64,000 bases of DNA from a phage (GCA_012490745.1 GCA_012490745.1_3925.1), one strand, 5' to 3'. Shown: positions 2 through 18,890, numbered from the stretch's first letter. A program made the numbers and translations. Notes: generated from the sequence alone by a model not told the origin.

Positions 2-1024
2 AAAAAACTTCCCGATTCAGTTACACATGTCTTTATTGACTCTGATAGTATTGCCTATAAAGGTGCTTGTGTAGTTGAGAAAGCAAAATATAAATATGTC
101 AATAAACTCACAGCAGAAGAATCTGAACCATTTGATAATGCAAAAGATGCTGCAAGATGGTTAGCAGACCAGAGAATCCTTGTAGAAGAGCTTGGCCTGA
201 CATTTGATGAAGATGAATGGGAAAGACAGACTTGGAAAGAAGCTAAGAGTGAAAAAGAAGCTATCATGGCTACTCAGCAGGTTCTTCAGGAATGGCTTAA
301 GGTTGTTGGTAAAGAAAGAACTTGGGTAGGTTATTTAACAGAGAAGGGTGTACATAAACATAAAGACATTAAAGGTCTTGAGCACCAATATCAAGGTAAC
401 CGTAAAGAGGCTGTTACACCAACACACTTAGTTGCTTGTCGTGAATATCTTCTATCAAGACCAGAGTTCAAACTCTTAAAGGGAGGCTTCGAAGCCGATT
501 CCATCGTAATTGCTAAAGCTGAAAAGATGGGTAAGAAGGCTGCTCTTATGAGTATTGACAAAGACCTTCGACAAGCTGAAGGGACTTACTGCATTGATAT
601 GACCTATGAAAAATCACCACTAATCTTTATTGCTGACAATAATGTTGGTGATATCTGGGATTGCCCTATCAAATCAAAACCAAAAGCTGCAAAAACAGTT
701 GGCGTAGGTTTTAAATTCTTGTGTTATCAGGCTGTTGCTGGAGATAATGCAGACAACTACTTCGGCCTAAAAGGTGCTGGTAAAGTAGCTGTGATGAATG
801 CTTTAGAGGGTAAAGAGACCTACAAAGAGTGTCTTGACGCTATCTATGAACTTTATGCTAAAAAAGATTCTTATACCTATGTGTCATGGGATGGACAGAC
901 TGTTACCAAAACACCATTAGAGTTAATGGAACAGCACTTCTGGATAGCATATCAAGAGAGAAATCCAAAAGACAATTTCTCTTTCAAGAAATATAATTGG
1001 GAGCCGTGTATGAATGAAGATTAA
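2..1024 (+). CDS. 5'-3' exonuclease / flap endonuclease (T5 D15 / T4 RNase H family); 5' end lies outside window
   Basis: Frame is open from window start to stop at 1024. Motifs HVFIDSDSIAYKG, QYQGNRKE, GFEADSIVIA...SIDKD and AVAGDNADNYFGLKGAGKVAV follow the order of conserved blocks in phage 5' nucleases (recalled from the family, not searched). Confidence 0.7.
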   Translation, partial: KKLPDSVTHVFIDSDSIAYKGACVVEKAKYKYVNKLTAEESEPFDNAKDAARWLADQRILVEELGLTFDEDEWERQTWKEAKSEKEAIMATQQVLQEWLKVVGKERTWVGYLTEKGVHKHKDIKGLEHQYQGNRKEAVTPTHLVACREYLLSRPEFKLLKGGFEADSIVIAKAEKMGKKAALMSIDKDLRQAEGTYCIDMTYEKSPLIFIADNNVGDIWDCPIKSKPKAAKTVGVGFKFLCYQAVAGDNADNYFGLKGAGKVAVMNALEGKETYKECLDAIYELYAKKDSYTYVSWDGQTVTKTPLELMEQHFWIAYQERNPKDNFSFKKYNWEPCMNED

Positions 1025-1511
1025 AGGATTTGGCAATTGCCCTACCTACGGTCATTGGGTATCTTTATGTGGGGAAGTTGACCCCACTAAACATTTTGGC
1101 TTTGTCTATTTAGTGCACTGTAAGAAGACTGGACAATATTATATCGGAAAGAAACAGCTTAACAGTGTGACAAAAAGAAAAGTTGCTGGGAAGACTCGGA
1201 AGAAGGTAGTCACTAAGGAGAGTGATTGGATGACTTACGAAACCTCTTCTGAGTATATTAAAAAAGATATTGAAAGCTTTGGAAAAGAATCTTTTGATTT
1301 TTACATTATTCAAACCTACTACACAAAAGGTGGTCTAGTCTATGGTGAAGCAAACCTTCAACATAAATTCGATGTAATGACAAAAAGGATTGACTCGAAG
1401 CTCAGGCTCTTCTACAATGCCAATATTGCAGCAATTAAGTTTATTACTAAAGAAACTTATGAAGATGCTGAAAAAAGAATCCATAAGGTAATGAAAGCAA
1501 ATTATGCTTGA
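1014..1511 (+). CDS. putative GIY-YIG-type endonuclease-like protein
   Basis: N-terminal FGFVYLVHCKKTGQYYIGKK resembles the GIY...YIG motif; small free-standing ORF beside replication genes. Weak. Confidence 0.4.
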   Translation: MKIKGFGNCPTYGHWVSLCGEVDPTKHFGFVYLVHCKKTGQYYIGKKQLNSVTKRKVAGKTRKKVVTKESDWMTYETSSEYIKKDIESFGKESFDFYIIQTYYTKGGLVYGEANLQHKFDVMTKRIDSKLRLFYNANIAAIKFITKETYEDAEKRIHKVMKANYA

Positions 1512-7297: not shown

Positions 7298-9442
7298 ATG
7301 AACAAAGTACAGATTATTAAAAAGAATGGCTCACTTGAAGAACCTGATATCAAAAAAGTTTTAGCAGCAGTCACAAAGTCAGCTAACAGAGTTGGTTATA
7401 AAGAGCTTCCACCAGATGTTACTCAAGCTCTTGAGTCAGCATTTATGAGGATTCTGGTAAAGTCCACTAAGCAGAATAATTTGCTAATTTCGGTAAATGA
7501 TATTCACAGTATTGTTGAGGGTGCTTTGGCAGAAGTCAATCACGAGATTTATGAGTCTTACTCAACATATAGAAATTACCGTAAAGAGGTTGCTCAAAAT
7601 TGGGATGAACTCTACCAGAAGACTAAAGATACACTCTTCTTAGGTGACCGTGAAAATGCTAACTTTGACAGCAGTTTAATTTCTACGAAAGGTTCAATTA
7701 TCCGTGGTTACCTGACTAAAGAAATCTTTAAACAGTATCATCTAACACCAGAGGAACTTGAAGCCATTGAGAAAGGCTTTATCTATATCCATGATTTAAG
7801 AGACCTGATTTTTGGTGGTATTAACTGTTGCCTGTTTGACATTGGTAAAGTACTAAAAGGTGGCTTTGAAATGTCCGGCATTGAGTACTGTGAACCTAAA
7901 TCTGTACTGTCAGCGTTGCAGGTTATTGGTGACGTAGTACTTTCAGCAACTGCACAGCAATTTGGTGGTTTTACTTTAGCAGAGATTGATAAGGTACTTG
8001 TACCGTATGCTAAGAAGTCTCTACGCTATCATGCTGAGAAAGCATCATCTTATGGTATTCCTAAAGAGCATTACCACAATTATGTAATGGAGCAGTTACA
8101 AATTGAATTAACTCAAGGTTTTCAGTCACTTGAAATGAAACTGAACACTGTACCTTGTAGCCGTGGTGATTTCGCATTCACAACTTTAACATTTGGTTTA
8201 CTTGACTCAGACATGTCTAATGAAGACAACCGGCTACAATACATGATTGCAAACACCATTCTTGATGTTCGCATGAATGGACAAGGTAAGAGTAAGAAGC
8301 CTGTTGTATTCCCTAAACTGGTTTATATTCATGACCAGAAGAGACACGATGAGAATATCTGTCAAGGCCAACTGTACAGTAAAGCTATTGAGTGTTGCTC
8401 TAAAGCAATGTATCCAGATTTCTTAAGCGTATCTGGTCATGGTGCTGTAGCAGAGGCTTTTGAGCGTTCTGGCAAGGTAATTTCACCGATGGGTTGCAGA
8501 GCTTTCTTATCCCCATATCTTAACGAGAATGGAGAAGAGTTCTACGTTGGTCGTGCTAACATTGGTGCTGTGTCTTTGAACTTACCAATGATTTACCAGT
8601 ATTCTAAAGAGAATGGTTTAGATTTCTGGAAAGAGCTTGACAAGTACCTAGAGATGATTCGCAGCTTCCACAAGAAACGCTACGAAATGATTGCTAATAT
8701 GCCAGCAAGCTCTAACCCTCTTGCATTCACACAAGGTGGTCTGTACAAAGGGACCAAGAAACCTACTGACAAGGTTGGTTGGGATATCGTGAAGTCTTTC
8801 ACAGCTTCTTTTGGGGTTACTGCGCTTGATGAGTTATCTGTTCTTGCTGAAGGTAAACGGCTGCATGAAGTTGGGAGCTATAGTTTTGCATACGATGTTC
8901 TGGCATACATTAACATGAAAACTGAAGAGTTTAAAAATGAAGATGGCTTCTTATATGCTGTCTATGGTACTCCAGCAGAATCACTTTGTGGAACTCAGCT
9001 AAAACAGTTCAGAGAAATGTTTGGTGTTATCAAAGGTGTTTCTGACAAGGAATACTTTACAAACAGTTTCCATATGAATGTTGCAGCAGACATCTCACCA
9101 TTTGAGAAGCAGGACTTAGAAGAGCCATTCTTCCATATCTGTAGAGGTGGCAGAATCCAGTATGTCAGGGTAGCTAACCCAGAAAACTTACCAGCACTTA
9201 AAAGCTGTATTACCAGAGGGATGTTGAAAGGTTTCTATCAGGGACTTAACTTTGACTTAGCAATCTGTGAGCATTGTGGTAACAGACCAAAATCAGATGT
9301 TGAAGAGTGTGAAGTTTGTCACTCACATGATATCTCTGTGATTAACAGGGTGTGTGGGTATCTTGGATGGACTAAGATTAAAGGTGAATCCCGAATGAAC
9401 GATGCAAAAATCGCTGAGATTCGTGACAGAGTTTCTATGTAA
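7298..9442 (+). CDS. nrdD: anaerobic ribonucleotide reductase class III
   Basis: 714 aa; C-terminal Cys cluster (CEHCGN...CEVCHSHD) followed by glycyl-radical motif RVCGYLGW. Confidence 0.9.
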   Translation: MNKVQIIKKNGSLEEPDIKKVLAAVTKSANRVGYKELPPDVTQALESAFMRILVKSTKQNNLLISVNDIHSIVEGALAEVNHEIYESYSTYRNYRKEVAQNWDELYQKTKDTLFLGDRENANFDSSLISTKGSIIRGYLTKEIFKQYHLTPEELEAIEKGFIYIHDLRDLIFGGINCCLFDIGKVLKGGFEMSGIEYCEPKSVLSALQVIGDVVLSATAQQFGGFTLAEIDKVLVPYAKKSLRYHAEKASSYGIPKEHYHNYVMEQLQIELTQGFQSLEMKLNTVPCSRGDFAFTTLTFGLLDSDMSNEDNRLQYMIANTILDVRMNGQGKSKKPVVFPKLVYIHDQKRHDENICQGQLYSKAIECCSKAMYPDFLSVSGHGAVAEAFERSGKVISPMGCRAFLSPYLNENGEEFYVGRANIGAVSLNLPMIYQYSKENGLDFWKELDKYLEMIRSFHKKRYEMIANMPASSNPLAFTQGGLYKGTKKPTDKVGWDIVKSFTASFGVTALDELSVLAEGKRLHEVGSYSFAYDVLAYINMKTEEFKNEDGFLYAVYGTPAESLCGTQLKQFREMFGVIKGVSDKEYFTNSFHMNVAADISPFEKQDLEEPFFHICRGGRIQYVRVANPENLPALKSCITRGMLKGFYQGLNFDLAICEHCGNRPKSDVEECEVCHSHDISVINRVCGYLGWTKIKGESRMNDAKIAEIRDRVSM

Positions 9443-10749: not shown

Positions 10750-11235
10750 ATGAATTACATGGAGATTCGACCATTTGACACAGCTAATGGTGAAGGGGTT
10801 CGTGTAAGCCTCTTCGTAGCTGGTTGTAAGCATCACTGTGAAGGCTGCTTTAACAGGGAGTCTTGGAAGTTTAATGCCGGTAAAGTGTTTACTTATGCAA
10901 ACCTCTACGGCATCATTAAGTTAATGGATGATAATGCCATCAGTGGGCTGTCAATACTTGGTGGAGAACCTCTGGATGATAGAAACATTCAAGAGGTTAC
11001 CAACATATGCAAACGTATTAAAACCGTTTACCCAGAAAAATCTATCTGGCTCTGGACAGGTTTTCAGTTACATGAAAAAATTCACCTTGATGTGATGAAA
11101 TATGTTGACGTGGTGATTGATGGTAAGTATGATTCATCTAAACCAACAGTTAAACCATATCGTGGTTCTGATAACCAAAACCTCTGGAGAAAAGAGTATG
11201 GGTGGCAAGGTGATTGTCAGTGGAGAGCAGAGTGA
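10750..11235 (+). CDS. nrdG: anaerobic RNR activating protein (radical SAM)
   Basis: 161 aa; CKHHCEGC matches the CxxxCxxC radical-SAM cluster motif; follows nrdD. Confidence 0.8.
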   Translation: MNYMEIRPFDTANGEGVRVSLFVAGCKHHCEGCFNRESWKFNAGKVFTYANLYGIIKLMDDNAISGLSILGGEPLDDRNIQEVTNICKRIKTVYPEKSIWLWTGFQLHEKIHLDVMKYVDVVIDGKYDSSKPTVKPYRGSDNQNLWRKEYGWQGDCQWRAE

Positions 11236-11331
11236 TTATTCTGGCAAATGGACTAAGGTATAACTCCAATTGGTATCACTGAAGAAGAACTTCATAAGTT
11301 CTGTATTAAACTTTAATGAGAGAGACTAAAA

Positions 11332-11598
11332 ATGGGAATTTTAGGTAATATGAAAGCTGGATTCTTGAAGGCACTCGAAAAAGCAGCAGCAATTGTTTCT
11401 ATGACTGGAAAGCAGGTCGGTGTAGATGCTTCAGCGGTTGCACAGGTTCTTGCAAGCCAAATTGAACAGCAGCCTTACATCTACGTAGGACGTGGTAAAG
11501 GTGGTAAGAAACAAGCCCACCGCCAATCTGGTGCAGCAGCTATTAAACGAGCAGCTAAGAAAGCTCGTAACCGTAAACGTAACAAGAAGGTTAAATAA
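11332..11598 (+). CDS. hypothetical protein with lysine/arginine-rich tail
   Basis: 88 aa; basic C-terminus (KKARNRKRNKKVK). Confidence 0.4.
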   Translation: MGILGNMKAGFLKALEKAAAIVSMTGKQVGVDASAVAQVLASQIEQQPYIYVGRGKGGKKQAHRQSGAAAIKRAAKKARNRKRNKKVK

Positions 11599-11600
11599 CC

Positions 11601-11921
11601 ATGAGCAAAGTTTATAACACTCGTAAATTACAGATTTTCGTACTGTGCCAGTTTATGGCTAAAGAATACAACTTCTACTATTGTGGTACAGGTTTTATTA
11701 GCGATGATGATGGCTCATACCTCCCATTCAAAGAAGCTGTAAAACTCTTTAATGAAGAGAAAAGCTCTAAGAAAGATATTGAAAAGGTTAAGCTAACCTA
11801 CAGCAAGAAAGATAAGAAGATTATCTGCCTAGATAACTTTGTGAAAGTTACTGGAGAAGCAAAAGAGTTTATGGATGAGAGTGATATTTCATTCACAAGC
11901 ATCTTGAAAGTAGCTCAGTAA
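11601..11921 (+). CDS. hypothetical protein
   Basis: ORF with GTTAAATAACC-ATG coupling. Confidence 0.4.
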   Translation: MSKVYNTRKLQIFVLCQFMAKEYNFYYCGTGFISDDDGSYLPFKEAVKLFNEEKSSKKDIEKVKLTYSKKDKKIICLDNFVKVTGEAKEFMDESDISFTSILKVAQ

Positions 11922-11933
11922 ACAGATACTATA

Positions 11934-11960
11934 AGGGGACTGTAAAGGTTCCCTTTTTAT
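11934..11960 (+). terminator. possible rho-independent terminator
   Basis: Imperfect hairpin AGGGGAC...GTTCCCT followed by TTTTTATTTT. Confidence 0.35.
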
Positions 11961-11972
11961 TTTGGAGGTAAA

Positions 11973-12488
11973 ATGTATCTGTCAAACCTGAAACGTTCGG
12001 TTGCAATATCTGTTCTGAGACTAAGCTTTGAAGAGCGTCAAGAGTTCATTGATTCTCACCAATATGACCCTTCCAATTCCAATCACATGATTCTCTGGAA
12101 CCGTGATAACTTCCGTGAAAGAGCACTTGTCCGTTATTACCCACACTACACAATAGATAACCTGTATGAATGGTGTGTTGTGAAGAACACTATTGCAACA
12201 CTTAACAATCTTTGCAGGTATACAGGCAAGCAAACATTTACACTAGGTCACCACAAGCCTGTTACAAAAGGTGGTGAACATCACTGTGCAAACTGGTTTA
12301 TCCAAACTAAAGCTGATAACCAGAAGCAAGGAGATAGACTCCTAAGCATCCCTAAGATGACCTATGAAGAGCAAGAGAGATATATCAAAAATAATATGCC
12401 AGATGTGCTTGACAACAACTATACAGATTTGGCAATATCTCTCCTGTTGAAGTTCGAGACAGTTTATAGGGCAACTTACAATGGCTAA
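11973..12488 (+). CDS. putative HNH endonuclease
   Basis: GHHKPVTKGGEHHCANWFIQTKADNQKQG resembles an HNH nuclease core; free-standing gene between metabolic genes. Confidence 0.5.
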   Translation: MYLSNLKRSVAISVLRLSFEERQEFIDSHQYDPSNSNHMILWNRDNFRERALVRYYPHYTIDNLYEWCVVKNTIATLNNLCRYTGKQTFTLGHHKPVTKGGEHHCANWFIQTKADNQKQGDRLLSIPKMTYEEQERYIKNNMPDVLDNNYTDLAISLLLKFETVYRATYNG

Positions 12489-12759
12489 AGAAAAGTGGGA
12501 GATTTTACCATTAGTCAGTGAAGGTGGTAATGGTTGTGAGATGTACATGATACGTGGTCATGTTCCAGAACCAATTGCACTTGAGATGGTAAACAACTTT
12601 ACAGATGGTTCTTACAAAGACTTAGGAGAGCCAACTATAAAGCATCAATGGGTAAAGCCTGTACCAGACAGCACAGGTAACTGTAGTGTACTTTACCACG
12701 TTGTAGACCCTGTAAAATGCAAATCTGCAATGGCAGTAACAAACGTAACTTTTGATTGA
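12481..12759 (+). CDS. hypothetical protein
   Basis: ORF. Confidence 0.35.
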   Translation: MAKEKWEILPLVSEGGNGCEMYMIRGHVPEPIALEMVNNFTDGSYKDLGEPTIKHQWVKPVPDSTGNCSVLYHVVDPVKCKSAMAVTNVTFD

Positions 12760-12770
12760 GAGAGAAAACT

Positions 12771-13652
12771 ATGAAAACATCTATCCGTGTCACAATTCAT
12801 TCACCGACTAAAGGAACTCATGAAGAAGAGTTTAACATCATCCAATTCCCTTCTGGTGAGATTGGTGGCCACTTTTCACAAGAGCTTGTTGATTTTACTG
12901 CTTATGCAGCATCATCTATTAACAATGTGGTTATGATTGTAAAGGGTTATGATAAAGACACATTGTTTGCTGTGGCACTTGCTAAAGAAGCAATTGATGA
13001 TTTAATTCCTCATGATTATGCTTTAAAGACTATCATCTTTTACTACTTACCAAATGCACGATATGACCGTCACATGTTTAAAGGCGACGCAGCAGCTTTA
13101 AAGGTTTTTGCTAAACAGGTAAATGCAATGGGATTTGGTGCAGTCTGTGCAGTTGACCCTCACAGTTACGTTCCAGATAACCTGTTTAACTGCTTCCAGA
13201 GTATTCCTCAAAAGGAGATTGCAGTCCACTATGCAAATGACCCACTGGTTGATTACTTAGTGGCCCCAGATGCAGGTGCTGCTAAGAAGATTGTAGAGAC
13301 TGCTAAAGAGGTGGATAAACCATATATCACAATGTCTAAGGTGCGTAACCTTAAGACTGGCGAAATTACTGGTATGCGAATCCTTGACGATGTTGATTTG
13401 ACAGATAAAACCGTCATGATACTGGATGACATTTGCGATGGTGGTAGAACATTTATTGAGGCAGCTAAACATCTTCGTGAAGCAGGTGCAAAACGTGTGG
13501 AACTCTATGTAACACACGGTATCTTCTCTAAAGATGTTGAAAACTTGCTTGACAATGGTATTGACCATATCTACACTACAAACTCTTTAGGGGAAGCTGA
13601 AGACCGTGGCTTAACACATTATAGCCAAGTTACTGTAGCAAACCTTGATTAG
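12771..13652 (+). CDS. PRPP-synthetase-like phosphoribosyl pyrophosphokinase (Prs homolog; possibly ADP-ribose pyrophosphokinase of an NAD+ reconstitution pathway)
   Basis: About 293 aa; type-I PRT PRPP-binding motif VMILDDICDGGRTF; ATG at 12771 with SD (the track start at 12756 is TTG). Confidence 0.75.
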   Translation: MKTSIRVTIHSPTKGTHEEEFNIIQFPSGEIGGHFSQELVDFTAYAASSINNVVMIVKGYDKDTLFAVALAKEAIDDLIPHDYALKTIIFYYLPNARYDRHMFKGDAAALKVFAKQVNAMGFGAVCAVDPHSYVPDNLFNCFQSIPQKEIAVHYANDPLVDYLVAPDAGAAKKIVETAKEVDKPYITMSKVRNLKTGEITGMRILDDVDLTDKTVMILDDICDGGRTFIEAAKHLREAGAKRVELYVTHGIFSKDVENLLDNGIDHIYTTNSLGEAEDRGLTHYSQVTVANLD

Positions 13653-13660
13653 GTAACAGT

Positions 13661-14152
13661 ATGAATAAGGGTTATTTTGAAAGATACCTAATATATGAAC
13701 CAGATACAGGTTTATTAATTTGGAGAGTAACCCTTTGCAGTACCGCTATTGCTGGTAATGTGGCTGGCACAAGGTCTAAGAAGGGTTATATCCAAGTCCA
13801 GATAAATAAGAAGAGGTACTATGCACATAATATTGCATGGATTATGTCTGGAGGTGAGATACCAAGTGGATATGAGATAGACCACATAGACCTTGATAAA
13901 TCTAATAATAAGTTGGAGAATTTAAGACTTAGCACAAAGTCACAAAATCAGAGGAATAGGGGTATATACAAGAATAATAAAACTGGTGTGAAGGGTGTAA
14001 GTTTTTGTAAACAAACAGGTCTTTACAAAGCAAGAGTCATGCTTTACCATAAAGAATACTTTTGTGGAAGATTTAAAACGGTAGAAGAAGCAAAAGAAGC
14101 TGTAATTAAAAAGCGAATAGAACTTCATGGTGAGTTTGCAAGACATAACTAA
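13661..14152 (+). CDS. HNH homing endonuclease with AP2 DNA-binding domain
   Basis: YEIDHIDLDKSNNKLENLRLSTKSQNQRN (HNH_3-type motif) followed by GVKGVSFCKQTGLYKARVMLYHKEYFCGRFKTVEEAKEAV (AP2-like). Inserted between the two NAD-related genes. Confidence 0.8.
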   Translation: MNKGYFERYLIYEPDTGLLIWRVTLCSTAIAGNVAGTRSKKGYIQVQINKKRYYAHNIAWIMSGGEIPSGYEIDHIDLDKSNNKLENLRLSTKSQNQRNRGIYKNNKTGVKGVSFCKQTGLYKARVMLYHKEYFCGRFKTVEEAKEAVIKKRIELHGEFARHN

Positions 14153-14166
14153 GAGAGAGATAAAAT

Positions 14167-15948
14167 ATGAGTAAGTCACTTTACGCAGTACCAGCAGGTC
14201 TTAATGCAGATGCTTACAAGGCATCACATATATATCAGTATCCAGATGCTACGCAATATCTTATGTTGAACCTGACACCACGTAGTGACAAATGGTTTAA
14301 CAGCCCCTTAGCAATTGATGGTGTAGTAGCTTTTGGTATTCAACGTTTTGTTAAAGATTACTTGATAGACCACTGGAATGCTACGTTCTTTGAACGTGAC
14401 AAAAAAGAAGCAATTGACGAAATCTTAGAAGTCATGAATGGTGTTCTGGGCAAAGATGCTATCGGTCGAGAGCATTGGGAAGCACTCCACGATTTAGGTT
14501 ATCTACCAGTTGAAGTATATGCTGTAGAAGAAGGTACAGTTGTCCCGATGCGTGTCCCAATGATTGTCTTCCAGAACACTGTTTCAGGCTTCCATTGGGT
14601 AGCAGGTTATCTGGAAGATGCTTTCTCTGCTGAGATTTGGAAGGCTTGCACCATTGCGACTATTGCATTGCACTACAAACGTATATGTAAGAAGTGGGCT
14701 GACCTTACTTGTGACAACGACCTACATTTACCTTATCAGTGTCACGACTTTGCTATGCGTGGTATGTCCGGCTTTACTGATGACGCATTTAACGCTGTAG
14801 GTCACTTAACCAGCTTTAAAGGAACCGATAGCTTCCCTGCTGTATACACGGCTAAACGCATCTATGGACAGTCTTACCCAATCTCTGATATTGGTAGTTC
14901 TGTACCAGCCACTGAACACTCTGTAATGTGTGCAAACATTGCTTGGGAAGGTGGTAATGAGTTGATTGAAGAAGAAAGACGCTTTAAAGGTGAGTTACAA
15001 ACCTTCCGTCGTTTCTTAACAGAAACTTACCCAACTGGTATTGCAAGTGTTGTTTCAGACACTTATAACTTCTGGAGAACTGTGTCAGAAATTTTACCAG
15101 CACTCCGTAAAGAAATTATGGAACGTGATGGCAAACTGGTAATTCGTCCTGACTCTGGAGACCCTGTACATATTGTCACAGGTTATAAAGCAATCCACTT
15201 AGAATGTGCTAAGAAGGCTTATTACGAGCACCTAAGCAAGCTGGAAGCCAGTGACACAATGTTGAATGCTGTTCTGAACATGAAGCTTGAGAACATCAAC
15301 TATGGTATTGCTGGATGGCTACTGTCAGAAGGCTACGAGATGGTTGTTGACAGAGAAGACTTTGAAGTTGCTGATACAGTGATGTTGAAGAACGCTTATA
15401 TGGTTGGCTCTGCAAACGTTGTAACACGCCCTGTAGCTGAGATTGATGGAGCTATTAAGACACTGTACAACATCTTTGGAGGAACTATTAACTCTAAAGG
15501 TTTTAAGGTACTGGATGAGCACATTGGCCTTATCTATGGCGACTCTATCACGCTGGAACGTGCAAACGAAATCCTGAAGCGTCTGTATGAAATGGGTTTT
15601 GCAAGCTCTAACGTAGTGTTTGGCGTAGGCTCTTACACTTACCAGTACATGACTCGTGACACCTTTGCATTTGCTGTTAAAGCAACTCTTGCAAGCATTG
15701 GTGGTAAAGAGATTATGCTTGCAAAAGACCCTAAAACAGATAGTGGTGTTAAGAAGTCTGCTTTTGGTGGTGTAGCACCTATGTGGGATGGTGATAAGTT
15801 GAAAGCTGTAGATGGCTATGGATTCCAGAGCTTTGCAGATGTACTTGAACATCCAGCTTGTGCTTTACGTTTAGTCTTTAGCGACTCTGAGCAGTTCGGT
15901 TACACAACGCTTGGTGATATTCGAAATAATATTGACAAGCAGCTTTAA
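14167..15948 (+). CDS. nicotinamide phosphoribosyltransferase-like enzyme (NAMPT/NadV family; possibly Namat-type)
   Basis: 593 aa; long NAPRTase-family-like sequence adjacent to the Prs-like gene. The pairing is the classic phage NAD-salvage arrangement. Assignment is by context and overall resemblance, not alignment. Confidence 0.7.
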   Translation: MSKSLYAVPAGLNADAYKASHIYQYPDATQYLMLNLTPRSDKWFNSPLAIDGVVAFGIQRFVKDYLIDHWNATFFERDKKEAIDEILEVMNGVLGKDAIGREHWEALHDLGYLPVEVYAVEEGTVVPMRVPMIVFQNTVSGFHWVAGYLEDAFSAEIWKACTIATIALHYKRICKKWADLTCDNDLHLPYQCHDFAMRGMSGFTDDAFNAVGHLTSFKGTDSFPAVYTAKRIYGQSYPISDIGSSVPATEHSVMCANIAWEGGNELIEEERRFKGELQTFRRFLTETYPTGIASVVSDTYNFWRTVSEILPALRKEIMERDGKLVIRPDSGDPVHIVTGYKAIHLECAKKAYYEHLSKLEASDTMLNAVLNMKLENINYGIAGWLLSEGYEMVVDREDFEVADTVMLKNAYMVGSANVVTRPVAEIDGAIKTLYNIFGGTINSKGFKVLDEHIGLIYGDSITLERANEILKRLYEMGFASSNVVFGVGSYTYQYMTRDTFAFAVKATLASIGGKEIMLAKDPKTDSGVKKSAFGGVAPMWDGDKLKAVDGYGFQSFADVLEHPACALRLVFSDSEQFGYTTLGDIRNNIDKQL

Positions 15949-15960
15949 AAGTATATGATA

Positions 15961-15986
15961 AGAGGCTCCTACGGGAGCCTTTTTAA
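15961..15986 (+). terminator. rho-independent terminator (AGGCTCC-TACG-GGAGCCT + T-run)
   Basis: Perfect 7-bp stem, tetraloop, TTTTT. Confidence 0.7.
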
Positions 15987-16001
15987 TTTCTGGAGAAAAC
16001 T

Positions 16002-16337
16002 ATGAAAATCAAAGAAATGAACATCAACATTGTCTTAGAAGAACGTTGGGAGAACATCAAGAAGACTGAAGATGGTCATAAGTTCCTCAACAAAATTTTA
16101 GTAGCAGCTAAAGAAGAACTGACTGGAAAGGTTGCAGCAGCAATCACAATAAAGGTTTGTGTAAAAGGTCTTCCACAACATCACCAGTTTGCGCTTGACG
16201 AGTTTAAAAAAAGCTTCTACAATCCAAACAAACAGATGCTTGAAAGTAACTTTGCAGTATCTACAAGTATCGTTCATGACAGAAGCTTTATCCTTTACAA
16301 AAACATGAGAGGTGAGTCATGCAAGCATATTGGATAG
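16002..16337 (+). CDS. hypothetical protein
   Basis: ORF with SD GGAGAAAACT. Confidence 0.4.
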   Translation: MKIKEMNINIVLEERWENIKKTEDGHKFLNKILVAAKEELTGKVAAAITIKVCVKGLPQHHQFALDEFKKSFYNPNKQMLESNFAVSTSIVHDRSFILYKNMRGESCKHIG

Positions 16338-16495
16338 AAATTTTACTGTCACTTGGTAGTGTAGCAGTATTTGTCTACCTCCTTTGTAAGTACTTTGCAG
16401 AGCACAAAAAATGTGACTACTGTAATGGAGAGGGGTACATAAGGGCAGGTTGTTGCCCTATGTGTGGTGGTTCTGGTAAAATGTTTAATAAGTAA
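16319..16495 (+). CDS. hypothetical small zinc-ribbon protein (not in supplied ORF track, <60 aa)
   Basis: 58 aa; N-terminal TM segment plus CDYCNGEGYIRAGCCPMCGGSG (CxxC...CxxC); overlaps stop of upstream gene. Confidence 0.3.
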   Translation: MQAYWIEILLSLGSVAVFVYLLCKYFAEHKKCDYCNGEGYIRAGCCPMCGGSGKMFNK

Positions 16496-16523
16496 TTTAA
16501 CAGTAAACTAAGAGGAAAGTATT

Positions 16524-18890
16524 ATGCGCATGGTAAACGACCACGCAGAAGTGATTAAGAGTTCAACTTCTTTAGAGACGTCTCAAGCACAGATTACAAT
16601 GACACCTGAAATGTTCAGCCTTTTGAGTTCCGGTGTATACACATTTAAAGAAAGGGCAGTGATTCGTGAACTGTCATGTAACGCAGTAGATGCTCAAAAA
16701 GAAGCTGGAAAAGAGAACATCCCGTTCCATGTGCATTTACCTACTCGATTTGAGCCTTACTTTGAAGTCCGTGACTTTGGAACTGGTTTAACCCATGACA
16801 AAGTAATGAGTTTGTATCTGAACTATGGGGCTTCTACGAAGAATGACTCTAATGACTACATTGGTGCAATGGGTATCGGCTCAAAGTCACCGTTTGCGAT
16901 TGCTCAGTCATTCACAGTGTCTAGCTATGTTGATGGTGTTGTTAATAAGTACTCTGTTTACCTTGAGAATGGTATTCCTCAAGTAACTAAGCTTACTACT
17001 AACCAAACAAATGAACCTAATGGTTTAGCTGTACGTGTGGCAGTTGCTGACCACCGTATTTCAAAGTTCTTTGAAGAGGCTGGTAATGTATACTCATACT
17101 TTGCTGTAAAACCAGAGAGTAATGTGGAGTATAATGATATATTAGCAGATATGGATGTGATTGCTCGTGAAGAAGGTGTCTATGATGCCATGACTCATAA
17201 GCATAGCTGGCGTTCAAGCAGCAATAGAACAGAGTTTAACGTGGTTATGGGTAATATTGCCTACCCAGTTAATATGGAGGCATTACTTGGTGATGATTTC
17301 TTCAAAGTATTACCAGAATTTTTCCGCAGGAGCATAGACCTTGTAAACATCTACATGCCTATTGGTTCAGTTGCTATTGCAGCTTCTCGTGAAGCATTGC
17401 AGATGAATGACACGACAAAAAATGTTATCATCGAGGCTACTAAAAAGATAACTGAAGCAATTACAAAGGATGTTATCAAGAAAGTTAATAGTCAACCTAC
17501 ACTCATGGATGCTGCACAGGCTTATGCTGAGTTACGCTTGAACTCACGAGAGATGTTTAATGCTGTGTGTCCAAAGCTAGAGTGGGGAGGCGTTAAGCTT
17601 GATTCTCTGGAAGAAGAATTACTAAACATTCGTCGTGGGATTATCTACGCAGAAGACGGCTCAGTCATTTATGAACGTGACGGCAAAGGCAATATTAAGG
17701 TTGACAGCAAAGGAAACAATATCCCTAAAGTTGACTACCTATACAATCCAGTTGCTTATGTCAAGTTCAACTCTTTAGAGAGTAAGATTCGTGCAACAGC
17801 ACTTTCCTACACTCAAGAGGCAAGTATGTTCAATATCTTTGGTGCAATGCGTAAAAGTCAAATTGAACAGTTTTTGTTTGTTATTAATGACCGTCGCAAT
17901 AAAAACGGTACTGAGAAGACTGTAGGCCGCAATCAGATTCTGCGTGGTGCATGTCGAGACTACGCCAGTGAGTCCAGTCTGTTTCACAGATATAATGGCA
18001 TTGTGTTTGTATTCTCGACTGAAAAAGAGTTAGATGATTTAATCAATCTACACAAACTTGATAAAAGCTTGTTAAAGATTGTGAAAATGTCTGATAAGGA
18101 GCACCATTACCAGCGTAAAGAAGCTGTAAGGGGTGTTGTAAAACTCTGGAAAGCTGTTCCAGCAGAAGGTGTAGCTTCCTATAAAGAGGTTTCAGAGGAC
18201 TTTGATACAATTGAAGAGCCTCAGCTTTACATTAAGGCAGTTGGCGACACAGTTGATGGCGAATGTTTTTGCTCATCTCCAGAAGATGTAGCCAAGTCAG
18301 TTGCTAATGTTACAGGGAAGACAGTCTATGTTTTCCGAAAAGCAAATTGGAAAAAGATACCAGAAGACTGGATTGAAGTAGATGAGAAACTCTTGAACGA
18401 CAGCTTAACTGATGTTCATTGGATTAATCATAACAGATATATGACACGCATCTACATGAATGGTGTTCTTGACCTGACAAGCAGTTGGATTATTGCCAGA
18501 AACTTTACGTTCAATAACAGGAAGATTTCTCGTGGCTATTGCTATTCACGGGATACAAACAAAACTATCTTCCTAGAAGGAAATGAAGATGCTGTAGAGG
18601 CAATGTTTGGTAAAATCCAATACGTTGCTGCACCATTTGCATACACTTATACTATTAGTGTATTGAAAACTTTGAAAGACTGTCTTGACAATGATACAAA
18701 GCTTTACAAGAAAATTAAGAAAGCTGGTGACCGTATGGTCATTAAGGTGACAAACTACCTTTCAAAAAGAAAACAAGAAAACTTCTTGCTTTCTCATTTG
18801 GATTGGAATAAAGTGTCACCCATCGAAGTGAGTAAGTTCTTAGGCTTTGATGTAAAATGTGTTCCAGAAGGGACTACAATTTACGATTAA
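16524..18890 (+). CDS. rIIA: rIIA-like protein with GHKL-type ATPase N-terminal domain
   Basis: 788 aa; N-box-like RELSCNAVDA, G1-like VRDFGTGL, G2-like GAMGIGSKS in the order expected for a histidine-kinase-like ATPase fold as found in rIIA. Confidence 0.6.
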   Translation: MRMVNDHAEVIKSSTSLETSQAQITMTPEMFSLLSSGVYTFKERAVIRELSCNAVDAQKEAGKENIPFHVHLPTRFEPYFEVRDFGTGLTHDKVMSLYLNYGASTKNDSNDYIGAMGIGSKSPFAIAQSFTVSSYVDGVVNKYSVYLENGIPQVTKLTTNQTNEPNGLAVRVAVADHRISKFFEEAGNVYSYFAVKPESNVEYNDILADMDVIAREEGVYDAMTHKHSWRSSSNRTEFNVVMGNIAYPVNMEALLGDDFFKVLPEFFRRSIDLVNIYMPIGSVAIAASREALQMNDTTKNVIIEATKKITEAITKDVIKKVNSQPTLMDAAQAYAELRLNSREMFNAVCPKLEWGGVKLDSLEEELLNIRRGIIYAEDGSVIYERDGKGNIKVDSKGNNIPKVDYLYNPVAYVKFNSLESKIRATALSYTQEASMFNIFGAMRKSQIEQFLFVINDRRNKNGTEKTVGRNQILRGACRDYASESSLFHRYNGIVFVFSTEKELDDLINLHKLDKSLLKIVKMSDKEHHYQRKEAVRGVVKLWKAVPAEGVASYKEVSEDFDTIEEPQLYIKAVGDTVDGECFCSSPEDVAKSVANVTGKTVYVFRKANWKKIPEDWIEVDEKLLNDSLTDVHWINHNRYMTRIYMNGVLDLTSSWIIARNFTFNNRKISRGYCYSRDTNKTIFLEGNEDAVEAMFGKIQYVAAPFAYTYTISVLKTLKDCLDNDTKLYKKIKKAGDRMVIKVTNYLSKRKQENFLLSHLDWNKVSPIEVSKFLGFDVKCVPEGTTIYD

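What the first reader, a model, noticed from the sequence alone, without database searches (positions are those of the whole stretch)
13661..14152. HNH-AP2 homing endonuclease inserted between the two NAD-pathway genes
A free-standing endonuclease (HNH motif plus AP2-type DNA-binding domain) occupies the intergenic position of what would otherwise be a two-gene operon. Together with a second HNH gene at 11973-12488 and a GIY-YIG-like ORF at 1014-1511, this indicates active homing-endonuclease traffic in the nucleotide-metabolism block.
Basis: partly seen in the sequence, partly recalled or inferred. Interest (0 to 1): 0.4.

Follow-up and report, generated by a model that had tools for sequence, protein, structure and literature searches.

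The report
Mobile HNH-AP2 endonuclease gene in NARP1
The ORF is a real, intact HNH-AP2 homing-endonuclease gene of a Felix O1-like phage, a selfish element present in about a quarter of relatives, always between the two genes of the NAD+-rebuilding anti-defence operon; this kind of gene is already known and annotated, so the finding is correct but ordinary.

Summary
Window 13661-14152 (+) is an intact 163-codon ORF with an N-terminal HNH_3 nuclease domain and a C-terminal AP2-fold DNA-binding domain. The window is a Felixounavirus.

The flanking genes are the Prs-like Adps and the Nampt-like Namat. Together they form the NARP1 NAD+-reconstitution operon shown experimentally in phage Bas63; the window Namat is 98% identical to Bas63's.

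Among 253 related GenBank records, 62 carry the gene and 191 lack it. It is always at this same junction. It replaces a conserved 31-35 bp stretch that holds a GC-rich hairpin.

Several features fit a site-specific mobile homing endonuclease gene:
- The gene is under purifying selection (dN/dS about 0.1).
- Its residues match the I-HmuI catalytic positions.
- It is more conserved across genera than its flanks.
- It drags a 60-90 nt tract of namat 5' sequence with it.
- It is patchily distributed on flanking-gene trees.

Cleavage, target site and nick-versus-break chemistry are inferred, not shown.

One of them has no convincing HNH signal. Endonuclease-gene traffic in this block is better shown by two other sites that are empty in this window.

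The kind is already known: Felix O1 HNH-AP2 endonucleases were reported in 2004, and this gene is annotated in many records.

The parts
12756..13652 (+). adps (Prs-like ADPR-pyrophosphate synthetase), first gene of the NARP1 operon. The likely true start is the ATG at 12771, as annotated in wV8 and Bas63. Its stop codon is TAG in all insert-carrying alleles examined and TGA/TAA in insert-free alleles.
   Evidence: Pfam Pribosyltran/Pribosyl_synth and PHROG 619. 80% aa identity to Bas63_0079. Stop-codon fixed difference.
13651..14152 (+). The inserted segment (502 bp). It runs from the second base of the adps stop codon to the endonuclease gene's stop codon. In insert-free relatives it is replaced by 31-35 bp containing the hairpin GGGGCT-N4-AGCCCC followed by AYTTT.
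   Evidence: Alignments. All sampled insert-free rows (45 of 191) start aligning at query position 93-97, mostly 94, which is window 14153.
13661..14152 (+). Homing endonuclease gene: 163-aa HNH(HNN)-AP2 endonuclease. GC is 34.6% against 40-42% in the flanks.
13817..13954 (+). HNH_3 / His-Me-finger nuclease core (residues 53-98). D74, H75, N87 and N96 align with the same-numbered residues of I-HmuI.
   Evidence: Pfam. Profile alignment to 1U3E, E=1.1e-9. Foldseek top hit 1U3E, probability 1.00. D74/H75/R89/N99 invariant and N83/N87/N96 at least 90% conserved in 79 homologues.
13982..14131 (+). AP2-fold DNA-binding domain (residues 108-157; model strands 113-116, 121-128, 131-138 and helix 141-159).
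   Evidence: Many 40%-identical full-length homologues carry a precomputed PF00847 hit.
14153..14166 (+). Retained namat ribosome-binding spacer (GAGAGAGATAAAAT). It is shared with insert-free alleles but carries insert-linked substitutions.
14167..14266 (+). Insert-linked 5' tract of namat (nt 1 to about 60-100). The fixed difference is codon 2, AGT versus ACT. Nt 18 (C versus T) is near-fixed. Codon 20 is TCA versus GGY. This tract is co-transferred with the endonuclease gene into Moogle/Susp-like backgrounds. Together with the deleted hairpin, it is the candidate target and immunity region.
14167..15948 (+). namat (Nampt-like nicotinamide ADPR-transferase), second gene of NARP1.
   Evidence: Pfam NAPRTase/NAMPT_N and PHROG 448. 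98% aa identity to Bas63_0080. Closest solved structures are phage-type Nampt/Namat entries.
15960..15983 (+). Terminator-like hairpin plus T-run ending the adps-endonuclease-namat transcription unit. The previous one upstream is at 11933-11955.

Best explanation
The ORF is a free-standing, site-specific homing endonuclease gene of the HNH(HNN)-AP2 family, resident in the spacer between adps and namat of a Felixounavirus NARP1 operon.

Proposed mechanism (inferred):
1. During mixed infection with a relative that lacks the gene, the 163-aa protein binds the insert-free adps-namat junction. The AP2 domain supplies sequence recognition, possibly at the GGGG/CCCC hairpin stem.
2. Its His-Me-finger site (D74/H75/N87/N96) nicks or cuts nearby. 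The likely place is within about 100 bp, in the spacer or the first ~60-100 nt of namat.
3. Recombinational repair from the insert-carrying genome copies the gene, plus a short stretch of namat 5' sequence, into the recipient. This deletes the hairpin.
4. Insert-carrying genomes are immune because the site is split and the adjacent namat bases differ.

The gene is expressed as the middle cistron. Its weak Shine-Dalgarno sequence (AGG) is built from the TAG stop codon of adps. The namat ribosome-binding site is kept, so the operon stays functional.

Shown: domain identity, intact catalytic residues, presence/absence polymorphism at one locus, purifying selection, cross-genus transfer with a flanking tract.
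Inferred: cleavage itself, the target position, and nick versus double-strand break.
For: Domains and fold.

Locus polymorphism: 62 records carry the gene and 191 lack it. All 62 span the same junction between the gene's 3' end and namat, with one place per record. The right boundary is the same in the insert-free rows sampled.

Insert-free junction: it has a conserved hairpin in 24 of 24 alleles, and in Bas63.

Intactness and selection: all 9 sequenced copies examined are intact 163-codon ORFs. dN/dS is 0.06-0.27, typically about 0.1, at up to 10% nt divergence.

Cross-genus transfer: the gene is about 90% identical between the window and the Moogle/Susp-like phages, while their adps 3' ends are only 79-81% identical. 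In those phages the first 60 nt of namat are 97% identical to the window, against 80-82% in their insert-free sisters. Identity falls to background after about 90 nt.

Patchy distribution: parsimony changes of the presence/absence state on local trees are 2 for namat nt 1-100, 5 for the rest of namat and 7-9 for adps, against a random mean of 8.

Orthologue at the same junction in Pectobacterium phage Arno162. A 46%-identical homologue in Erwinia phage Omen sits at a different locus, upstream of DNA polymerase, as expected for a different specificity.

Composition: lower GC than the flanks.

Literature: Felix O1 has six HNH copies (PMC3185647). HNH-AP2 endonucleases were reported in Felix 01 (Magnani 2004, as cited in PMC5318435). 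The IPA-HNH class and the preference of AP2 domains for GC-rich DNA are described in PMC10448857.
Against: No cleavage or homing experiment exists for this protein, and no closer relative has been characterised.

The AP2 Pfam score of this single sequence is below the curated cutoff.

The flanking tract could be ordinary linkage from the lineage in which the gene first inserted. Roughly 30 insert-free records, including L006, L012 and L013, carry the insert-type namat 5' haplotype, so that haplotype is not exclusive to insert carriers.

The 10% divergence among copies shows long residence, so spread by ordinary recombination cannot be excluded.

In Arno162 the gene is about as diverged as its flanks (53-56% against 45-50% aa), which also fits old vertical inheritance there.

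GenBank/RefSeq duplicate records inflate the raw counts.
Confidence: 0.85

Rival explanations
1. It is a decaying or inactive remnant of a homing endonuclease gene. It no longer cuts, and persists only by linkage to NARP1 and ordinary homologous recombination.
For: Copies differ by up to 10% at the nucleotide level, so residence at the site is old. The gene is at an intermediate frequency of about 25% rather than sweeping. One draft genome yields a 109-aa truncated product (P0004).
Against: All 9 copies examined in detail are full-length, with dN/dS about 0.1. All 62 GenBank copies align over the full length. The catalytic D74/H75/N87/N96 are intact. An inactive selfish gene would be expected to accumulate frameshifts and deletions.
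Confidence: 0.08
2. It is a domesticated protein with a phage-beneficial role. For example, it could be an AP2-type regulator of the NARP1 operon, or an insertion selected because it removes the internal hairpin or terminator and changes namat expression.
For: The insert always deletes the conserved hairpin between adps and namat. Purifying selection is strong. AP2 domains are DNA-binding modules that plants reuse as transcription factors.
Against: The gene is absent from about 75% of close relatives, including Bas63, whose NARP1 is experimentally functional without it. The nuclease active site is conserved, which a pure regulator would not need. Its closest fold match is a homing endonuclease.
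Confidence: 0.05
3. It is an intron- or intein-associated endonuclease, or a packaging-type HNH that works with terminase, rather than a free-standing intergenic homing gene.
For: Bas63 carries an endonuclease gene inside a split nrdD in the same block. Some phage HNH proteins assist terminase (general knowledge).
Against: The ORF lies between two complete genes that are contiguous in relatives. No Rfam intron or other RNA family scores in 11000-17000. The ORF is not in frame with, or fused to, its neighbours. No terminase gene is adjacent.
Confidence: 0.02

Closest known systems
HNH(HNN)-AP2 free-standing homing endonucleases of phages: Magnani et al. 2004 (Felix 01, RB49); Xp10/OP1/Xop411 'HNN-AP2' genes (PMC2248197); 'IPA-HNH' class of ICP1 and others (PMC10448857)
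   Same: The architecture is the same: an N-terminal HNN-type HNH_3 domain without Cys dyads and a C-terminal AP2 domain, about 160-170 aa, free-standing and next to conserved metabolic or replication genes. The conserved boxes correspond: AHNIAW to HRLAWLL, DH to DH, SNN to DNR, NLRL to NLRE, QN to EN. The gene itself is already annotated 'HNH homing endonuclease' in many Felixounavirus records.
   Different: Nothing categorical. What is specific here is the site, the spacer of the NARP1 adps-namat operon, with replacement of a conserved hairpin. The target has not been mapped for this lineage or, to my knowledge, for any close relative.
I-HmuI (PDB 1U3E), intron-encoded HNH nicking endonuclease of Bacillus phage SPO1
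   Same: It is the best structural match (Foldseek E=2.4e-4, probability 1.00). The profile match is E=1.1e-9 over the nuclease half, and D74/H75/N87/N96 align residue for residue. It shares the extended two-module layout of nuclease plus a separate DNA-binding domain.
   Different: I-HmuI is intron-encoded, and its C-terminal DNA-binding module is not an AP2 domain. Sequence identity is 19%. Whether the window protein nicks one strand, as I-HmuI is reported to do (my recollection of the literature), is untested.
T4-type free-standing homing genes (seg and mob genes such as segF, segG, mobE)
   Same: They are intergenic and polymorphic among relatives. They act on the insert-free allele near the insertion point and co-convert flanking markers. 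They sit in nucleotide-metabolism gene blocks. This is general knowledge of the T4 literature, reviewed in the Edgell et al. 2010 paper cited.
   Different: The seg genes are GIY-YIG enzymes, and the mob genes are HNH enzymes without AP2 domains. There is no sequence relationship beyond the HNH core.
NARP1 operon (Adps + Namat) of Bas63/JohannRWettstein (Osterman et al., bioRxiv 10.1101/2024.02.11.579819)
   Same: The flanking genes are its orthologues. Namat is 98% and Adps 80% identical, with the same order and the same neighbours.
   Different: Bas63 has the uninterrupted form with a 45-bp spacer and hairpin. The window has the endonuclease gene in place of the hairpin. That paper's text does not mention endonucleases.

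Membership tests
HNH_3 / His-Me finger nuclease (PF13392) | Pfam model score above the curated gathering threshold | tested here: met
   69.6 bits against a cutoff of 24.8, E=1.7e-19, full model 1-46 matched.
HNH_3 / His-Me finger nuclease (PF13392) | Catalytic/metal residues (Asp-His general-base pair, structural Asn, metal-binding Asn) present | tested here: met
   D74, H75, N87 and N96 are present. They align to D74/H75/N87/N96 of I-HmuI. D74/H75 are invariant and N87/N96 at least 90% conserved in 79 homologues. The roles of these I-HmuI residues are from my recollection of the structure paper.
HNH_3 / His-Me finger nuclease (PF13392) | beta-beta-alpha-metal fold | tested here: met
   The model (pLDDT 92) has strands 71-75 and 88-92 and helix 93-98. 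Foldseek top hit is 1U3E, followed by I-PpoI entries.
HNH_3 / His-Me finger nuclease (PF13392) | Metal-dependent DNA nicking or cleavage | not testable with these tools
   Needs biochemistry.
AP2 DNA-binding domain (PF00847) | Pfam model score above the curated gathering threshold | tested here: not met
   20.9 bits against a cutoff of 33.3 for this single sequence. The match covers model positions 1-53 of 54.
AP2 DNA-binding domain (PF00847) | Family-level sequence homology to bona fide AP2 domains | tested here: met
   The profile of 79 homologues hits WRI1 at 2.9e-13, TEM1 at 3e-7, ERF096 at 3.3e-5 and AtERF1 at 7e-4. About half of the full-length homologues carry a precomputed PF00847 hit.
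AP2 DNA-binding domain (PF00847) | Three-stranded antiparallel sheet packed on a C-terminal helix | tested here: met
   Model strands 113-116, 121-128 and 131-138 plus helix 141-159. RMSD is 1.2 A to TEM1 (7ET5) and 1.4 A to AtERF1 (1GCC), probability 1.00.
AP2 DNA-binding domain (PF00847) | Sequence-specific (GC-rich) DNA binding | not testable with these tools
   There is only a suggestive GGGG/CCCC hairpin at the insert-free site.
Free-standing homing endonuclease gene (functional class) | Presence/absence polymorphism at one homologous locus among close relatives | tested here: met
   62 records with and 191 without, at the same junction, one copy per genome.
Free-standing homing endonuclease gene (functional class) | Horizontal movement: gene phylogeny and distribution discordant with the flanks | tested here: met
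   The gene is about 90% identical across genera whose adps 3' ends are about 80% identical. At least 5 state changes occur on flanking-gene trees of 33 genomes, and linkage is lost within 300 bp on the adps side.
Free-standing homing endonuclease gene (functional class) | Co-conversion of flanking markers | tested here: inconclusive
   A 60-90 nt namat tract travels with the gene into Moogle/Susp-like genomes. However, the same haplotype also occurs in some insert-free phages, so hitchhiking from the original host cannot be separated from break-induced conversion.
Free-standing homing endonuclease gene (functional class) | Site-specific cleavage of the insert-free allele, with immunity of the insert-carrying allele | not testable with these tools
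   The sequence differences fit immunity: hairpin deleted, namat nt 5, nt 18 and codon 20 changed. There is no assay.
Intron- or intein-encoded homing endonuclease | Embedded in a self-splicing intron or in frame within a host protein | tested here: not met
   The ORF lies between two complete ORFs. No Rfam family scores anywhere near threshold in 11000-17000.
NARP1 operon (flanking genes) | Adjacent Adps-clade Prs homologue and Namat-type Nampt homologue, orthologous to an experimentally tested operon | tested here: met
   Namat is 98% and Adps 80% identical to Bas63_0080 and Bas63_0079, in the same synteny. The Bas63 operon deletion phenotype is reported.

The most novel reading that the evidence does not exclude
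The endonuclease gene may be more than a passenger. It could act as a gene drive for part of an anti-defence operon. By homing into the adps-namat spacer, it would carry a particular N-terminal Namat variant (S2, S20 and others) between Ounavirinae genera. It would also delete the internal hairpin or terminator, fusing adps, the endonuclease gene and namat into one uninterrupted transcript and altering NARP1 output. On this reading, a selfish nuclease would shape how phages counter NAD+-depleting immunity.
Probability: 0.12. Interest if true: 0.5.

Novelty: already known. Interest (0 to 1): 0.28.

Why it matters
As an annotation it matters little. The gene is already labelled 'HNH homing endonuclease' in dozens of Felix O1-like genomes, and the HNH-AP2 class has been known since 2004.

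Two points have modest value.

First, the insertion lies inside NARP1, a recently discovered counter-defence operon. Natural variants with and without the insert differ in an internal hairpin and in the Namat N-terminus. Anyone comparing NARP1 activity among Felixounaviruses should be aware of this.

Second, the data set offers a clean natural experiment for mapping the target of an uncharacterised HNH-AP2 enzyme. It has 62 carriers and 191 non-carriers, a defined 502-bp insert, a short linked tract, and non-carrier alleles of two haplotypes.

Tried and rejected
- Single-sequence search against PDB sequences found nothing. A family profile was needed.
- NCBIfam has no model for this protein or for the other two ORFs.
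- I looked for paralogues in the window with an HMM of 79 homologues against all six-frame ORFs. Only the ORF itself matched, so the window holds one HNH-AP2 gene.
- I looked for an RNA structure hiding the endonuclease gene's ribosome-binding site. A hairpin can be drawn in the window, but it is no better than shuffled sequence (z = -0.6) and is not conserved in the other allele type. Rejected.
- The Rfam scan for a group I intron or other RNA around the insert found only sub-threshold noise.
- I tested the 11973-12488 ORF as a 'second HNH'. It has no Pfam HNH hit, even on the motif-bearing fragment at E up to 1. hhalign probability against the HNH-AP2 profile is 0.1. Only PHROG 2214 matches, at 2.9e-6. 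It is present in most relatives. It is not accepted as a mobile HNH gene.
- The sigma-70-like promoter hit at 13549-13577 upstream of the endonuclease gene lies in coding sequence that insert-free phages share, so I did not use it.
- Strict 'fixed difference' mapping of the target yielded only the two bases abutting the insert. The wider tract is strongly but not perfectly associated, so the target cannot be pinned down in silico.
- The Magnani 2004 paper is not in the held library. It is cited through secondary sources.

Full report
**What is there.** The window is a Felix O1-like myophage (Felixounavirus). A 4-kb query around the finding matches 259 phage records, the best at 96% identity, nearly all Escherichia, Salmonella, Shigella or Citrobacter Ounavirinae. 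The ORF listing gives an ATG-started ORF at exactly 13661-14152 (+), 163 aa. It begins 8 nt after the stop of a Prs-like ORF (12756-13652) and ends 14 nt before a Nampt-like ORF (14167-15948). Pfam finds HNH_3 at E=1.7e-19 (residues 53-98) and AP2 at 20.9 bits, below the 33.3 cutoff (residues 108-157). PHROG 99 'HNH endonuclease' scores 2.9e-68.

**Protein.** Homologues are very common: 3,963 phage records by tblastn, including the T7 putative HNH endonuclease. There are 181 clusters in the metagenome collection, and about half of the full-length ones carry precomputed PF00847 plus PF13392 hits.
- In an alignment of 79 homologues, D74, H75, R89 and N99 are invariant, and H56, N83, N87 and N96 are at least 90% conserved.
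- The profile hits solved AP2 domains (WRI1 2.9e-13, TEM1 3e-7, ERF096 3.3e-5, AtERF1 7e-4). It also hits the HNH homing endonuclease I-HmuI at 1.1e-9, with D74/H75/N87/N96 aligned to the same-numbered I-HmuI residues.
- AlphaFold2 gives pLDDT 92 and pTM 0.75. The model has a beta-beta-alpha core at residues 71-98 and a three-strand sheet plus helix at 113-159.
- Foldseek against PDB ranks I-HmuI first (E=2.4e-4, probability 1.00). Plant AP2 domains follow, at 1.2-1.4 A RMSD, then I-PpoI.

This is the Cys-less 'HNN-AP2' type described for Xanthomonas phages.

**Flanking genes.** The two neighbours are not merely 'NAD-pathway genes'. They are orthologues of Bas63_0079 and Bas63_0080, the Adps/Namat pair of the NARP1 NAD+-reconstitution operon. 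Deleting that operon sensitises Bas63 to SIR2-HerA. Bas63 is a Felixounavirus with the same gene order. The window Namat is 98% identical and Adps 80% identical to the Bas63 proteins. Bas63 itself lacks the insert.

**Comparative anatomy of the insertion.** A 231-nt query spanning the gene's 3' end and namat nt 1-124 finds 253 records. Sixty-two cover it fully. In the other 191, every sampled row begins aligning at query position 93-97, mostly 94, which is window 14153, the base after the gene's stop codon. Searches with a larger flank and with the gene alone give the same 62. All copies are full length, with one place per record. GenBank/RefSeq duplicates inflate both classes somewhat.
- In 24 of 24 insert-free alleles fetched (plus Bas63), the 45-bp spacer contains a GC-rich hairpin, GGGGCT-N4-AGCCCC. 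The loops vary and an AYTTT tail follows, then the namat ribosome-binding site GAGAGAGAT. Folding energy is -12.6 to -14 kcal/mol.
- In all 9 carrier alleles examined, the segment from the second base of the adps stop codon through the hairpin tail is replaced by 502 bp (window 13651-14152).
- The only strictly fixed flanking differences abut the insert. The adps stop is TAG (part of an AGG Shine-Dalgarno sequence for the endonuclease gene) instead of TGA/TAA. Namat codon 2 is AGT instead of ACT.

**Evidence for mobility.**
1. All nine copies are intact, with dN/dS of 0.06-0.27 at up to 10% nt divergence.
2. The copies in Moogle, phiSUSP1 and S.Kent 1-2-1 are about 90% identical to the window's copy. 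In those phages the last 300 nt of adps are only 79-81% identical to the window. The first 60 nt of namat are 97% identical, against 80-82% in their insert-free sister phages, and identity returns to background after about 90 nt. No such tract exists on the adps side.
3. In most insert-free Felixounaviruses, namat nt 30-100 are only 68-82% identical to the window, while the rest of the gene is 90-97% identical. Seven of the 13 Namat amino-acid differences from Bas63 fall in the first 34 residues. Codon 20 differs at all three positions (TCA against GGY).
4. Parsimony changes of the presence/absence state are 2 on the tree of namat nt 1-100, 5 on the rest of namat and 7-9 on adps. The random mean is 8. 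Linkage therefore decays within a few hundred bases and is asymmetric.
5. An orthologue (56% aa) sits at the same adps|namat junction in Pectobacterium phage Arno162, where Adps is 45% and Namat 50% identical. The next-nearest homologue (46%, Erwinia phage Omen) sits upstream of DNA polymerase.
6. GC content is 34.6% against 40-42% in the flanks.

**Where the target may be.** Two models remain.
- Model A: the recognition site is the spacer itself. The GGGG/CCCC stem is a plausible AP2 docking site, because AP2 domains of this class are reported to prefer GC-rich DNA. Immunity then comes from the insertion splitting the site.
- Model B: the cut is in namat nt ~20-100 and immunity comes from the linked substitutions.

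About 30 insert-free records, including L006, L012 and L013, have the hairpin and the insert-free bases at nt 5 and 18 but the insert-type sequence from nt 34 onward. These could be one-sided repair products, which favours B. They could equally be descendants of the lineage first invaded, which fits A. This cannot be settled in silico. Whether the enzyme nicks, as its best structural match I-HmuI is reported to do (my recollection), or makes a double-strand break is also open.

**The ancillary claims.**
- ORF 1014-1511 does have a SegE-type GIY-YIG domain (4.9e-28). It is present in 222 of 253 relatives and is often annotated 'NAD synthetase'.
- ORF 11973-12488 has no Pfam HNH hit. Its only HNH signal is PHROG 2214 at 2.9e-6. 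It is unrelated to the HNH-AP2 profile and is present in most relatives.

Neither is evidence of traffic. Traffic is real, however. Many relatives (Mushroom, HY02, garuso and others) carry a second HNH-AP2 gene, 39% identical, between the exonuclease and the GIY-YIG-like ORF. The window is empty at that site. Bas63 carries an endonuclease gene inside a split nrdD, whereas the window's nrdD is uninterrupted.

**Known or new.** Felix O1 was reported to carry six HNH endonuclease copies. HNH endonucleases with an AP2 domain were reported from Bacteriophage Felix 01 in 2004. The class was renamed IPA-HNH and surveyed in 2023. The very gene is annotated 'HNH homing endonuclease' in many records. 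It is therefore already known in kind and as an annotation. What I did not find stated is its position inside NARP1, the hairpin replacement, and the linked namat tract (one search has no mention of endonucleases).

**Verdict.** The finding is correct and ordinary. Confidence is about 0.85 that this is a functional, or recently functional, site-specific homing endonuclease gene. Interest is 0.28.

Noticed in passing
window 1000-1030 (junction of exonuclease 266-1024 and ORF 1014-1511); L035 1009-1509: This is a second polymorphic HNH-AP2 endonuclease-gene site. Mushroom, HY02, garuso, VSe102 and many others carry a ~500-bp HNH-AP2 gene here (39% aa identity to the window's). The window is empty at the site, and the two flanking ORFs overlap.
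   Followed up: partly
window 7298-9442 (nrdD); L037 2631-5517: Bas63 nrdD is annotated as a joined two-piece CDS with a 'putative homing endonuclease' (bas63_0068) inside, presumably an intron. The window's nrdD is a single uninterrupted 714-aa ORF.
   Followed up: partly
window 12756-15948: The 'Prs' and 'Nampt' genes are orthologues of the experimentally studied NARP1 Adps/Namat pair of Bas63 (Namat 98%, Adps 80% identity). They are therefore probably an anti-defence NAD+-reconstitution operon rather than classical PRPP/NMN salvage.
   Followed up: yes
window about 15193-15480 (Namat residues ~343-437): The Namat is 593 aa, against about 495 aa for solved Nampt/Namat structures. PDB matches come in two stretches that leave roughly 95 extra residues in the middle. 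Arno162 has the extra residues too. Their function is unknown.
   Followed up: no
window 1014-1511: The ORF has a clear SegE-type GIY-YIG domain (Pfam 4.9e-28), yet many GenBank records annotate it 'NAD synthetase' (PHROG 447). It is near-universal in the genus, so it may be a fixed or domesticated GIY-YIG gene.
   Followed up: partly
window 11973-12488 and 11601-11921: Different GenBank records place the label 'putative HNH endonuclease' on one or other of these two small conserved ORFs. Neither has a Pfam HNH hit. The second is DUF7390.
   Followed up: partly
between window 15948 and 16002; L037 11509-11853: Bas63 and several relatives have an extra ~345-bp ORF (bas63_0081) directly after namat that the window lacks. 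This accounts for the +350 bp seen in some hits.
   Followed up: no
window 14282-14403: A 122-bp stretch of namat is 91% identical to a segment near the end of 'Escherichia phage Lambda_ev058' (LR597651), an evolved-phage record. The cause could be an odd recombinant or an assembly chimera.
   Followed up: no
L015 3906-4397 (IMG/VR contig 3300045988_024527): This copy of the endonuclease gene looks recombinant. Its first ~27 codons match the Felix O1-type allele and the rest match the window-type allele.
   Followed up: no
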